Source: Chloroflexota bacterium | Lineage (GTDB): Bacteria > Chloroflexota > Dehalococcoidia > Lucifugimonadales > UBA3495 | Length of the DNA stretch: 46,035 nucleotides | Reading direction: 5' to 3' | Assembly (NCBI GenBank): GCA_027623675.1 | Contig: JAQBVF010000029.1 | Span: forward strand, 1-46,035 | Shown here: positions 40,712 through 43,631 of the stretch, piece after piece | Layout of the letters: the number at the start of each line of letters is the position of its first letter | Numbering within the stretch: the first letter of the stretch is position 1 | Position numbers and translations under genes: made by a program | Notes under the pieces: model-generated | Told to the model about the DNA's origin: nothing | Databases searched by the model: none | Seen by the model: only the letters and a program-made list of their open reading frames with translations

Positions 40712-41119
40712 TCAGGCTGGCTTGAACGCCAGGGAGGGCGATTCCTCGTCCACGTCTTCAAGGTCCAACACCACGTCCATCCCGGTCTTGATGTCCTGGG
40801 GGTTTCGGCCGTCAACGCCGTTGATCCTGGCGCTGATACGGGGGCCTTCCTCCAGAGTGACGATTCCGGCGCAGCAGGGGTTGTCCCGTCCGTAGCCCTT
40901 GGCGGCCATGGCTGCAGAAACGATGGATATGCAGGTGAAGGTACTGAGCTTGGCCCTGCCGCTGAACTGGCGCCACTCCATGTTGAATCCGTGGCAGACC
41001 GGGCACATGGGCCGCGGCTCAGGCGACAGGTGGCCGCAGTCCTGGCACTTCACCCCCATCAACTTCTTTCCTTCCTTGAGGTGTTTGTAGAAGGCGGCGG
41101 CGTTGAATTCGCTGGTCAT
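40712..41119 (-). CDS. DUF35 Zn-ribbon/OB-fold protein (thiolase partner)
   Basis: KCQDCG...PRPMCPVC, LEEGPRI, IKTGMDV. Lies 2 nt after the thiolase stop. Confidence 0.9.
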   Translation of the reverse strand: MTSEFNAAAFYKHLKEGKKLMGVKCQDCGHLSPEPRPMCPVCHGFNMEWRQFSGRAKLSTFTCISIVSAAMAAKGYGRDNPCCAGIVTLEEGPRISARINGVDGRNPQDIKTGMDVVLDLEDVDEESPSLAFKPA

Positions 41120-41121
41120 GG

Positions 41122-42402
41122 CTAGGACTCCCGCCGCAGCACGTTTACCACGCAGGTCCCGCCGGTGCCGCCCACGTTATGGGTGATGCCCACGCTGGGG
41201 TTGGCCTTCTTCATCTGACGCTCTCCGGCCTCGCCGCGCAGTTGGTGGTAGATCTCGATGACCTGACCCACGCCCGAAGCGCCCACGGGGTGGCCTTTGG
41301 CTTTCAGGCCGCCCGAGGTGTTGATGGGATGGTCGCCGTCCCGCGCCGTCCGGCCTTCGTCAACCGCCCGCGGACCCTCGCCCGGAGCGAAAAAGCCCAG
41401 GTCTTCGCTGGCGACGATCTCGGCGATAGTGAAGCAATCGTGGACCTCCGCCAGGTCGATGTCGGCCACGGTGATTCCGGCCATGTCGTAGGCCTGCTGT
41501 GAGGCGGCCTTGGCGGCGGAGAGTGAGGTCAGTTCCTCCGAGTCGTGCAGCGGCTTGCCGGTGGCCTGTCCGATGCCCGCGACGCTGATGGGCGTGTCGG
41601 TGAAGTTATCGGCGATCTCGGCCGACACCAGCAACACGCAGGACGCGCCGTCGGTGATGGGGGCGCAGTCGTACAAGCGCAGGGGCCAGGCGATCCAGGG
41701 ATTGGAGCGGTCATCTCTCAGGAAATCCAGGTCGGTCTCCCAAGCGGGCACCTCTTGGCCGCGTTCTTGGGCCCGGGCCTTCCGGCGCTCCATCATCTCG
41801 GTGATGGTCTGCTGGAACTGGGCTTTGGGGTTCAGCGCGCCGTTCTGGTGGTTCTTGATGCCCACCTTTAGGAGGTGGTCAAGGTTGGTCTCGTAGCGGT
41901 CCATGTGGGCCTTGGCGATGGCGCCGAAGATGCCTGGGAAGGTCAGCCCGGACGGCACCTCGTAAAGTCCGTCGGCCGCGGAGGCTAGAACGTCGGTTAC
42001 GCCGTCGGTGGGCAGATTGGTCATCTTCTCCATGCCGCCGACCAGCACCACGTCGTACATGCCGCTGGCTATCGCCATCACACCTTCGCGGAGGGCGCTG
42101 CCGCTGCTGGCGCAGGCGTTCTCGATGCGAGTGATGGGGATGGGCGTTATGCCCAGCCAGTCGGCCACGATGGGGGCGGTGTGGCCTTGGTGCTCAAACA
42201 GGTCGGAGGAGTAGTTGCCCACGTAGGCGCATTCGATGTCGTGGATGTCGAAACCTTTGTCCATGCTCTGGACCATGTCTTGGAAGGCCTCCACGAACAG
42301 GTCGCGGCTGTCCTTCTCGGGGAAGGCCCCAAATTGTGACAGGCCGGCGCCAACGATTGAGACCGGCCGGCCCAATTGACGCTTTTTATTGATCGTGGCC
42401 AT
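41122..42402 (-). CDS. SCP-x/archaeal-type thiolase (acetyl-CoA C-acyltransferase family)
   Basis: ENACASSG, GGMEKM, KNH.NG..NP.AQF, DCAPITDGA, EVHDCFT, NTSGGL..KGHPVGASG. Confidence 0.92.
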   Translation of the reverse strand: MATINKKRQLGRPVSIVGAGLSQFGAFPEKDSRDLFVEAFQDMVQSMDKGFDIHDIECAYVGNYSSDLFEHQGHTAPIVADWLGITPIPITRIENACASSGSALREGVMAIASGMYDVVLVGGMEKMTNLPTDGVTDVLASAADGLYEVPSGLTFPGIFGAIAKAHMDRYETNLDHLLKVGIKNHQNGALNPKAQFQQTITEMMERRKARAQERGQEVPAWETDLDFLRDDRSNPWIAWPLRLYDCAPITDGASCVLLVSAEIADNFTDTPISVAGIGQATGKPLHDSEELTSLSAAKAASQQAYDMAGITVADIDLAEVHDCFTIAEIVASEDLGFFAPGEGPRAVDEGRTARDGDHPINTSGGLKAKGHPVGASGVGQVIEIYHQLRGEAGERQMKKANPSVGITHNVGGTGGTCVVNVLRRES

Positions 42403-42508: not shown

Positions 42509-42934
42509 CTAGGAAGGCCGGTCTTTCCGCTCTTGTTCCCTTTCCTCACTTTTGTGCCTGAGAGGCCGTCCTTTAGTGGGGTCTGGGTCTTTGATAATGC
42601 CGTATGATTTCCGGCCTTCGTGGTCTTCGGGCAGATATTCCGTTATGGGGAATCCATCCTCATTAACGAAGAGCATTCAATGACAATACTTGTAGATCTG
42701 CATGTCGTCGCAGGCGCACATCCAGGTGCGATGCTTCTTCTCTTCGTTCTTATCTGGATAGAACCGGCATGGGCACAGGGGCCTTCCGATCTCGTCGATG
42801 TTCTGAGCCAGGCCAAGGATAACTTGCTCGGTCACGCCCTCGATAGGGGAAACGGTTGTTCCGGATTTCTCACAATATTTCTCCACGAAGACGCGCATCT
42901 TCTGGATAGACTGCTCGCTGGGCATGTCTGACAT
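42509..42934 (-). CDS. Ferredoxin:thioredoxin reductase catalytic (beta) subunit, probable selenoprotein (UGA = Sec at codon 86; 141 aa)
   Basis: VILGLA...G..LCPCR, CAC, YCH-TGA-MLFV. The family motif is CHCxLF. The frame stays open 55 codons to TAG at 42509-42511. Confidence 0.85.
42635..42676 (-). promoter_or_regulatory. Candidate bacterial SECIS hairpin
   Basis: Immediately 3' of the UGA: UUCGUUA pairs with UAACGGA, AUGAGGA pairs with UCCCCAU (one mismatch), and the apical loop UGGAU contains G. Confidence 0.55.
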
Positions 42935-43097: not shown

Positions 43098-43310
43098 TCA
43101 GGCCAACATGGGACGCCGGCCTTTCGGTTTGGGAATCGGGTCGCCGAACTCCTTGGAAGTGTCGATCCAGAGCTGGACCGCGTCTTGGGCCGCAGCCAGT
43201 GCCTCCTCTTGCGATTCCCCGTGAGTGATGCATCCGGAAAGCTCTGGTACCTCCGCGACGAAAACCTTGTCCTCTTCGGACCAGTATAGGATTATTTCAT
43301 ATTTGTGCAT
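43098..43310 (-). CDS. hicB: HicB-family antitoxin (short form)
   Basis: YEIILYWSEED..FVAEVPEL.GCITHGES.EEAL...WI......G.PIP.P. Confidence 0.9.
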   Translation of the reverse strand: MHKYEIILYWSEEDKVFVAEVPELSGCITHGESQEEALAAAQDAVQLWIDTSKEFGDPIPKPKGRRPMLA

Positions 43311-43564
43311 CAGCCCTCGTGGCCGTAGCCGTATTTCAGAATCATGGCTCTTACTTGCCGGACTTGGTAAACCTTCGCTTTGCTGCCGTCTCTCTGCAAG
43401 TTGATGCGCTCATCCACACCGTTTTTCCGAAAAATAGGGTGACTGTCTCTGACTCGCTCTTCGAACCCTAAGCGCAAAAGCAATTGGCGGAGATGGTTGA
43501 ATGGAATATTTGAATCTGAAGCACCGCCTAAAACCCGGGAAAGTATTCTATCGTTAGTTGACAC
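43310..43564 (-). CDS. hicA: HicA-family toxin
   Basis: NIPFNHL..LL..LGF...SH.IF...INLQ..G.KAKVYQVRQV. Stop overlaps the hicB start. GTG start at 43564. Confidence 0.85.
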   Translation of the reverse strand: MSTNDRILSRVLGGASDSNIPFNHLRQLLLRLGFEERVRDSHPIFRKNGVDERINLQRDGSKAKVYQVRQVRAMILKYGYGHEG

Positions 43565-43631
43565 GTTACCGCCCCAGGTCATTATCTGGGCCGTAAGGTT
43601 GACCAGTCAACCTGGTCTCCTCTTGCCCATC

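What the first reader, a model, noticed from the sequence alone, without database searches (positions are those of the whole stretch)
42509..42934. Hidden selenoprotein: ferredoxin:thioredoxin reductase catalytic subunit with CH-U in place of CHC
Seen: the ORF track stops at TGA 42677-42679 after ...LCPCR...MCAC...YCH. The same frame continues MLFVNEDGFPITEYLPEDHEGRKSYGIIKDPDPTKGRPLRHKSEEREQERKDRPS to a TAG, and a hairpin with a G-containing apical loop begins 6 nt after the UGA. Established: FTR catalytic chains have CPC/CxC/CHC motifs with CHC followed by (M/L)LF, and the last Cys is the [4Fe-4S]-proximal member of the redox disulfide. Inference: UGA is decoded as Sec exactly at that residue, giving an Fe-S/selenol enzyme with a ~50-aa C-terminal extension in a non-photosynthetic Chloroflexota-like organism. 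Sec-containing FTR-like proteins have been reported in prokaryotes, so any novelty lies in the lineage, the extension and the context.
Basis: partly seen in the sequence, partly recalled or inferred. Interest (0 to 1): 0.85.

Follow-up and report, generated by a model that had tools for sequence, protein, structure and literature searches.

The report
One-selenocysteine ferredoxin:thioredoxin reductase-like gene
This gene encodes a small protein related to the iron-sulfur enzyme ferredoxin:thioredoxin reductase, and its internal "stop" codon is very likely read as selenocysteine at a predicted active-site position, making it an often truncated one-selenium variant of an enzyme type already predicted to use selenium.

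Summary
Confirmed (minus strand). TGA at 42679-42677 is codon 86 of a 141-codon frame and aligns with Cys87 of Synechocystis FTR. The genome has selA, selB, selD and tRNA-Sec. Of 153 homologous loci, 52 have TGA and 101 Cys here; none has TGA at the other five motif cysteines. A bSECIS-type hairpin follows 36 of 41 TGA versus 10 of 97 Cys sequences, though alone it is no better than chance. All 51 TGA genomes tested show selA or selB. Two corrections: the 55-residue tail is the clade's normal C-terminus, shared with Cys forms, and only about 25 residues longer than in FTR. It is not the catalogued selenoprotein family (NF041072: 44 bits, cut-off 160; two-Sec controls 203-224). Likely mechanism: a single-chain [4Fe-4S] enzyme passing ferredoxin electrons through a Se-S bond to a thioredoxin-fold protein; untested. 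FTR selenoproteins were predicted in 2008, so this is a new variant of a known kind. The scan reported it before in five other genomes.

The parts
42509..42934 (-). Coding sequence, 141 aa with predicted Sec86; FTR catalytic-chain homologue (Pfam FeThRed_B)
   Evidence: Translation; Pfam PF02943 85.1 bits, cut-off 22; only PF02943 match in the genome; model pLDDT 94.7, matching 1dj7 at Z 12.3, rmsd 1.7 over 91 residues
42944..42950 (-). Likely ribosome-binding site (GGAAGGA), 9 nt before the ATG at 42934
   Evidence: Read from the sequence; function inferred
42767..42775 (-). CPC motif, Cys54 (predicted cluster ligand) and Cys56 (predicted exchange thiol)
   Evidence: Aligns with CPC of 1dj7/7bzk; always Cys codons in 153 loci; roles recalled from the FTR literature
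42710..42718 (-). CxC motif, Cys73 and Cys75 (predicted cluster ligands)
42677..42685 (-). C-H-U motif: Cys84 (predicted ligand), His85, and TGA at 42679-42677 = predicted Sec86
   Evidence: 52 TGA / 101 TGC or TGT in 153 loci; aligns with Cys87 of 1dj7
42639..42670 (-). Predicted bacterial SECIS hairpin, +7 to +38 after the UGA; loop UGGAU at 42656-42652
   Evidence: Fold; fits the published model of G in the first two loop positions, 16-37 nt from the UGA (PMC13188914 passage); enriched in TGA homologues
42512..42676 (-). 55-residue C-terminal part (MLF...GFPITEYLPEDHEG...DP.P.KGR), clade-specific after about residue 95; shared by Sec and Cys forms
   Evidence: modelled at pLDDT 96-98 for residues 91-130

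Best explanation
The gene encodes an FTR catalytic-chain homologue whose in-frame UGA is very likely recoded as selenocysteine 86, and the product is predicted to work as a single-chain [4Fe-4S] enzyme that passes electrons from a ferredoxin, through a Se-S bond, to thioredoxin or a thioredoxin-fold protein. Shown here: the reading frame, the Cys/TGA exchange at one site, the Sec machinery, the SECIS-type signal that tracks with TGA, the FTR fold of the model, and no variable-subunit gene found. Inferred by homology: Cys54, Cys73, Cys75 and Cys84 bind the cluster, and Cys56 and Sec86 form the redox-active selenenylsulfide. Recalled FTR mechanism, not read in any call: the first electron frees Cys56 to attack the substrate disulfide while residue 86 binds a cluster iron as a fifth ligand; the second electron releases the reduced substrate. 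Selenium would therefore sit on the iron-contacting, resolving side and not on the substrate-attacking side. The conserved tail is guessed to shield the cluster in place of the variable subunit. Without selenium, termination at UGA would give an 85-residue chain lacking the redox pair.
For: Recoding: TGA only at this site (52 of 153 loci; 0 at the other five Cys). Tail conserved in frame. selA 555 bits, selB 348, selD 380 with its own TGA, tRNA-Sec 70 bits. Hairpin with G-loop at +22/23 in 36 of 41 distinct TGA sequences, against 11.0 expected from synonymous redraws; Cys forms 10 of 97 against 14.7 expected. Apical stem of 4 or more Watson-Crick pairs in 38 of 41 versus 3 of 97; different stems in different clades (GGAA/TTCC, GGCA/TGCC, GGGC/GCCC), some needing amino-acid changes not seen in Cys forms. 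Within the window's genus, 6 TGA and 9 Cys forms, hairpin in 5 of 6 versus 1 of 9. selA found in 50 of 51 TGA genomes, and the one without has selB; 15 of the 16 genomes without a selA match carry Cys. Function: all six motif positions and His85 align with solved FTRs; fold match; a WCGPC thioredoxin gene lies next to the gene in 15 of 154 loci, 9 of them co-oriented just downstream; G000 has a WCGPC thioredoxin and a 79-aa ferredoxin-like ORF; no PF02941 match.
Against: No protein, RNA or activity data. The window's own hairpin is weak (z -1.05). Homologues are kin, so the counts are not independent; the tree needs at least 7 Sec/Cys changes but only 4 are forced by well-supported branches, and it is a quick tree on 133 columns. 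Most Cys-form genomes also have selA (84 of 99), so the selA test discriminates only weakly. G000 has an NADPH-type thioredoxin reductase (TIGR01292 362 bits, cut-off 343), so this enzyme is not needed to reduce TrxA. The thioredoxin linkage is a minority pattern, and its co-oriented cases are all Cys forms of one branch. The related archaeal FDR reduces an atypical thioredoxin, not the canonical ones (PMC6262447 passages). The genome is 91% complete, so a missing variable subunit is not proven.
Confidence: 0.66

Rival explanations
1. Sec86 is real and the chemistry is FTR-like, but the physiological acceptor is not TrxA: it is a glutaredoxin-like, peroxiredoxin-like or other selenoprotein of this Sec-rich genome, or a small-molecule disulfide.
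For: G000 already has an NADPH-type TrxB (HRR motif). A rough scan shows many UxxC/CxxU thiol-oxidoreductase candidates in the genome. FDR of Methanosarcina reduces an atypical Trx. 139 of 154 loci have no adjacent thioredoxin within the fetched flanks.
Against: The closest solved relatives by sequence and fold are the thioredoxin-reducing plant and cyanobacterial FTRs (about 40% identity) rather than FDR or the Grx-FDR fusion (22-26%); trxA is the adjacent gene in 15 loci from at least two branches.
Confidence: 0.24
2. Sec86 is real, but the protein acts as an Fe-S redox sensor or electron relay, with the tail closing the thioredoxin face, and has no reductase turnover.
For: The tail is highly conserved, confidently modelled and without a solved counterpart; where it packs was not determined.
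Against: Complete catalytic motif including His85; thioredoxin-adjacent homologues carry the same tail.
Confidence: 0.07
3. TGA is a true stop: a truncated 85-residue protein or a pseudogene.
For: Gene callers end the protein there: 13 of the 150 best cluster representatives end exactly at ...CH. TGA is a working stop in this genome (149 of 614 long frames).
Against: The same nonsense change would have to recur only at this codon in several branches while the tail stays intact and a hairpin appears behind it.
Confidence: 0.02
4. TGA is read as Trp (genetic code 4), or is a sequencing error.
For: Nine of the 120 best database proteins show W at this position.
Against: RF2 is present (454 bits, cut-off 370), TGA ends many long frames, the only TCA-anticodon tRNA called is tRNA-Sec, and the aligned residue is otherwise always Cys; the W entries are most likely gene calls under table 4 (inference). 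Contigs of two runs agree with TGA.
Confidence: 0.01

Closest known systems
FtrB family double-selenoprotein (NCBIfam NF041072; GOS reads JCVI_READ_1093012271142 and JCVI_READ_841845, PMC2398784; representative MCS5647748.1 in PMC13188914 and PMC12013277)
   Same: FTR catalytic-chain fold family; Sec predicted at the last position of the third motif; found in the same class (10 such loci seen).
   Different: That family has two Sec (CPU ... CPC ... CIU; sequences seen in supplements). This clade has CPC ... C(A/P)C ... CHU, one Sec, keeps the His, has a different tail, and scores 37-49 bits against a cut-off of 160.
Ferredoxin:thioredoxin reductase catalytic chain (FTRc) of cyanobacteria and chloroplasts (PDB 1DJ7, 2PU9, 7BZK; Pfam PF02943)
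   Same: About 40% identity over residues 2-95, all motif positions, same fold.
   Different: Sec for Cys87; about 25 more C-terminal residues, unlike FTRc in sequence after residue 95; no variable subunit found, which is described as exclusive to oxygenic phototrophs (PMC9025218 passage).
Ferredoxin:disulfide reductase (FDR) of Methanosarcina acetivorans (PDB 4TPU) and the Grx-FDR fusion of Desulfotalea psychrophila (PDB 7PWE)
   Same: FTR-like enzymes outside phototrophs with the same cysteine pattern.
   Different: Only 22-26% identity; those carry a rubredoxin or glutaredoxin domain (entry names); this protein has neither.

Membership tests
Bacterial selenoprotein (UGA recoding) | In-frame UGA aligned with a conserved Cys of homologues | tested here: met
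   52 TGA / 101 Cys of 153 loci, 0 TGA at five other Cys
Bacterial selenoprotein (UGA recoding) | selA, selB, selC, selD in the genome | tested here: met
   All over curated cut-offs
Bacterial selenoprotein (UGA recoding) | bSECIS: G in first two loop positions, loop 16-37 nt after UGA | tested here: met
   Loop UGGAU at 20 nt (model); not significant alone, enriched in TGA homologues
Bacterial selenoprotein (UGA recoding) | Selenium shown in the protein | not testable with these tools
   Needs labelling or mass spectrometry
FTR catalytic-chain family (PF02943) | Score over the Pfam cut-off | tested here: met
   85.1 bits vs 22
FTR catalytic-chain family (PF02943) | CPC, CxC and CHC motifs in register | tested here: met
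   with U for the last C
FTR catalytic-chain family (PF02943) | FTRc fold | tested here: met
   Predicted model: Z 12.3, rmsd 1.7, 91 residues to 1dj7_A; Foldseek E 1e-9
Heterodimeric FTR of oxygenic phototrophs | Variable subunit (PF02941) | tested here: not met
   No match in G000 at E 0.1; control rings in Synechococcus; genome 91% complete
Heterodimeric FTR of oxygenic phototrophs | [4Fe-4S] cluster and ferredoxin-dependent thioredoxin reduction | not testable with these tools
   Needs biochemistry; candidate partners exist
FtrB double-selenoprotein (NF041072) | HMM score of 160 or more | tested here: not met
   44.1 bits; five other one-Sec members 37-49; four two-Sec controls 203-224
FtrB double-selenoprotein (NF041072) | Second Sec in the CPU motif | tested here: not met
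   Codon 56 is TGC; Cys in 153 of 153 loci
FDR / Grx-FDR fusions | Fused rubredoxin or glutaredoxin domain | tested here: not met
   Only PF02943 matches; no Cys in the tail

The most novel reading that the evidence does not exclude
Selenium has been recruited repeatedly, in three separate FTR-like lineages of Dehalococcoidia (this CHU clade, the two-Sec CPU/CIU clade, and rubredoxin-fused CYU forms), always at the residue that contacts the cluster iron. This clade would then be a natural single-chain enzyme that forms a five-coordinate Fe-Se [4Fe-4S] intermediate, with its conserved tail replacing the variable subunit, and with Sec and Cys orthologues side by side in one genus as a ready-made comparison.
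Probability: 0.45. Interest if true: 0.6.

Novelty: new variant of a known kind. Interest (0 to 1): 0.38.

Why it matters
It adds a widespread, uncatalogued one-Sec form to the FTR family and corrects a gene that callers truncate or mistranslate. In the recalled FTR mechanism the substituted residue is the one that binds a cluster iron during turnover, so a natural Sec form would give a spectroscopic handle (77Se NMR, Se EXAFS) on that intermediate. Close Sec/Cys orthologue pairs in one genus allow a direct test of what selenium buys next to an Fe-S cluster. A selenoprotein specialist would find it plausible, not surprising: Sec-FTRs have been predicted since 2008.

Tried and rejected
Plus-strand reading: nonsense. 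Hairpin as stand-alone evidence: rejected. Membership of NF041072: rejected. 'Split FTR genes' suggested by paired matches: these are single genes with an insertion after CPC. A functional link to the downstream thiolase and zinc-ribbon/OB-fold pair: found next to the gene in 11 of 15 same-genus loci whatever the codon, and a different thiolase lies convergently in one other family; treated as local synteny. No neighbour is conserved across the clade. Expression: no RNA holder listed, which is no evidence either way. Fold of the tail: not tested on its own; no separate match was listed, which is inconclusive. No complex model of the protein with thioredoxin was obtained, so binding is untested. 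The careful tree did not finish; the quick tree is used. Primary mechanistic papers on FTR and FDR and the 2025 selenoprotein-neighbourhood paper were not held, and two searches for residue-level text found nothing, so the roles of the individual cysteines are recalled. Of the 76 strong matches, two insertion forms (G294, G255) were not fetched. Only the best 80 of 449 relatives were returned. L087 shares a genome with L076 and was left out of the selA count.

Full report
Observation. The frame lies on the minus strand, 42934 to 42509, and gives 141 residues and a TAG when its single in-frame TGA (42679-42677, codon 86) is read through; a standard ORF list splits it into 85 and 55 residues. 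A purine-rich GGAAGGA lies 9 nt before the ATG. The hairpin starts 6 nt after the UGA, with loop UGGAU 20 nt from it. By itself it is ordinary: z -1.05, and 810 of 2612 random TGA triplets in this genome pass a loose version of the test. Contigs from runs X1 and X2 cover the codon with no difference; both are from one study and may be the source of this DNA.

Family. The read-through protein matches Pfam FeThRed_B at 85 bits and is the only such match in the genome. It aligns without gaps to cyanobacterial and plant FTR catalytic chains over residues 2-94, putting codon 86 on Cys87 of 1DJ7. The AlphaFold model (mean pLDDT 94.7; Cys standing in for Sec; alignment of 150 rows, 9 with W at this site) matches 1DJ7 at Z 12.3, rmsd 1.7 over 91 residues, and more weakly 7PWE (Z 8.0) and 4TPU (Z 6.5). 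No variable subunit was found.

Sec machinery. selA (555 bits), selB (348), selD (380, itself with one TGA) and tRNA-Sec (70 bits; anticodon TCA) all pass their cut-offs. RF2 is present and TGA ends 149 of 614 frames of 450 codons or more, so TGA is not generally reassigned. A rough scan listed 25 motif-filtered TGA candidates elsewhere in the genome, many resembling UGSC, peroxiredoxin, glutaredoxin, DsbA, AhpD or rhodanese selenoproteins (names are my recognition of motifs, not library hits; some rows are noise, and the scan's filters missed this gene itself).

Comparative test. I gathered 74 of the 76 strong matches from a sample of 301 genomes of the same class and the best 80 of 449 relatives in the genome collection; the two sets may share genomes. 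Leaving out one unpublished genome, 52 of 153 loci (the window included) have TGA at this codon, 101 have TGC or TGT, and none has TGA at the other five motif cysteines. The first 40 residues after the site are 55% or more identical to the window's in all 152 others, and 91 of 153 have exactly 55 residues to the stop. The tail is therefore the normal end of this clade, not a Sec-specific extension. Among the 80 named records, all 11 TGA forms are titled Dehalococcoidia or Chloroflexi, and the 19 records of other phyla (mostly Acidobacteriota) all have Cys. The window's organism is placed in Dehalococcoidia only by its nearest named relatives (82-86% identity).

SECIS. Among distinct 45-nt downstream sequences, a hairpin whose loop opens on the G at +22/+23 is predicted in 36 of 41 TGA and 10 of 97 Cys cases. 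Keeping the amino acids and redrawing synonymous codons gives 11.0 and 14.7 expected. An unbroken apical stem of four or more Watson-Crick pairs occurs in 38 of 41 versus 3 of 97; position +18 is G in 41 of 41 versus 45 of 97; and different branches build the stem differently (GGAA/TTCC, GGCA/TGCC, GGGC/GCCC, GGA/TCC), with position +20, invariant A in all 97 Cys forms, changed in 7 TGA forms at the cost of an amino-acid change. In the window's genus, 15 genomes with an intact motif split 6 TGA to 9 Cys, with the hairpin in 5 of 6 and 1 of 9. One Cys form (L135) nested among TGA forms keeps the hairpin, as a recent reversion would. selA was found in 39 of 40 and 11 of 11 TGA genomes of the two sets, and the exception has selB; it was found in 20 of 31 and 64 of 68 Cys genomes. 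A quick tree with the site masked needs at least 7 changes, 4 forced by starred branches. These genomes are kin, so none of these counts is an independent-sample statistic.

Context. Downstream are a thiolase-like gene and a zinc-ribbon/OB-fold partner, upstream a HicB-like gene. The thiolase follows in 11 of 15 same-genus loci regardless of codon; no neighbour is clade-wide. A WCGPC thioredoxin is adjacent in 15 of 154 loci: 9 co-oriented directly downstream (all Cys forms) and 6 convergent (all TGA forms). G000 has one clear TrxA, on another contig beside tRNA-Sec, one TrxB over the cut-off and two just under it, and one 79-residue ferredoxin-like ORF found by motif.

Mechanism. Recoding: about 97% likely. 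Function is inferred. The 2008 paper states that the two Sec of its FTR reads match the two redox-active cysteines (passage), and its supplement shows them in CPU and CIU, so codon 86 is one of the redox pair. That this member is the cluster-proximal one, binding iron as a fifth ligand while the CPC cysteine attacks the substrate, is recalled from the FTR literature; I could not open the primary papers. I commit to a single-chain ferredoxin-dependent reductase of thioredoxin or a close thioredoxin-fold protein with a Cys56-Sec86 bond (0.66). The main rival is the same chemistry on another acceptor (0.24), favoured by the redundant NADPH reductase and by the FDR precedent (PMC6262447 passages). 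The role of the tail as a cluster shield is a guess from the stated protective role of the variable subunit (PMC9025218 passage) and the confident model of residues 91-130.

What is known. FTR selenoproteins were predicted from two ocean reads in 2008 (PMC2398784: passages and supplement). Reviews list one FTR entry (PMC9312934 table row; PMC13188914 table row: NF041072, two Sec), and the deep-Sep supplement's representative is the two-Sec form (PMC12013277). This protein fails NF041072 (44 bits against 160), as do five other one-Sec members (37-49), while four two-Sec genes from the same class pass (203-224). I found no description of the one-Sec CHU form in ten searches of the held library (most seen as listings only). 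Limits: subscription papers are missing; BSepDB (PMC13326102; passages, and a supplement cut when stored) covers Dehalococcoidia genomes and its online entries could hold this form; the 2013 survey of bacterial FTRc groups and the 2026 groundwater survey were seen only as references. Public gene calls do mishandle it: 13 of the 150 best representatives end at CH, and 9 of the 120 best proteins show W. Five earlier scan reports on other genomes reached the same reading; they are not independent evidence.

Wider pattern. In the same class sample, rows flagged with TGA gave 10 two-Sec CPU/CIU loci and 4 rubredoxin-fused FTR-like genes with CYU; two of the latter were tested and also fail NF041072 (54 bits). 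In all three lineages the last motif position is the one that always takes Sec. This is the basis of the novel case.

Verdict. A real, well-supported predicted selenoprotein; a new one-Sec variant of a known kind; interest 0.38.

Noticed in passing
L180:1250-1768:-, L181:1331-1843:-, L182:5-523:-, L183:1274-1792:- (G295, G256, G152, G169): FTR-like genes fused to a C-terminal rubredoxin-like motif (FDR type) with TGA in a C-Y-U motif; Cys forms in L184, L186, L187. Two tested score 54 bits on NF041072, below its cut-off: a third Sec-FTR lineage that I did not see in the tables read.
   Followed up: partly
L169 and L171 (G108, G030): A two-Sec NF041072-type gene lies head to head, about 200 nt apart, with a Cys-form gene of this clade (L169 tested).
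   Followed up: partly
G000:C23:59994-60662 (L193, L001): The genome's canonical thioredoxin gene lies about 250 nt upstream of tRNA-Sec on the same strand.
   Followed up: no
L135 (G058:C14:34427-34819): Cys codon followed by an intact SECIS-like hairpin nearly identical to its TGA sister's: likely a recent Sec-to-Cys reversion.
   Followed up: partly
L047, L158-L171, L188-L191: A Cys-only branch with an insertion of about 15 residues between CPC and CxC.
   Followed up: no
L221 (G385:C33:21922-22244): Same-genus copy with an in-frame deletion removing the CxC and CHC motifs; pseudogene or assembly artefact.
   Followed up: no
G000, several contigs (e.g. C13:59521-, C17:90927+, C20:59470-, C35:40728+, C35:86573+, C47:14831-, C47:63360-): Many further in-frame TGA candidates with hairpins, among them five UGSC-like genes and a membrane-protein-like frame; the genome looks Sec-rich.
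   Followed up: no
window 43098-43582, minus strand: HicB-like antitoxin gene (Pfam PF15919) preceded by a 90-aa ORF with no family match that may be its HicA-type partner.
   Followed up: no
window 40712-42402, minus strand: Thiolase-like gene plus ChsH2-type zinc-ribbon/OB-fold gene, 106 nt downstream of the FTR gene with no terminator-like site found on that strand.
   Followed up: partly
L076 and L087: One Dehalococcoidia record holds two near-identical Cys-form copies of the gene.
   Followed up: no
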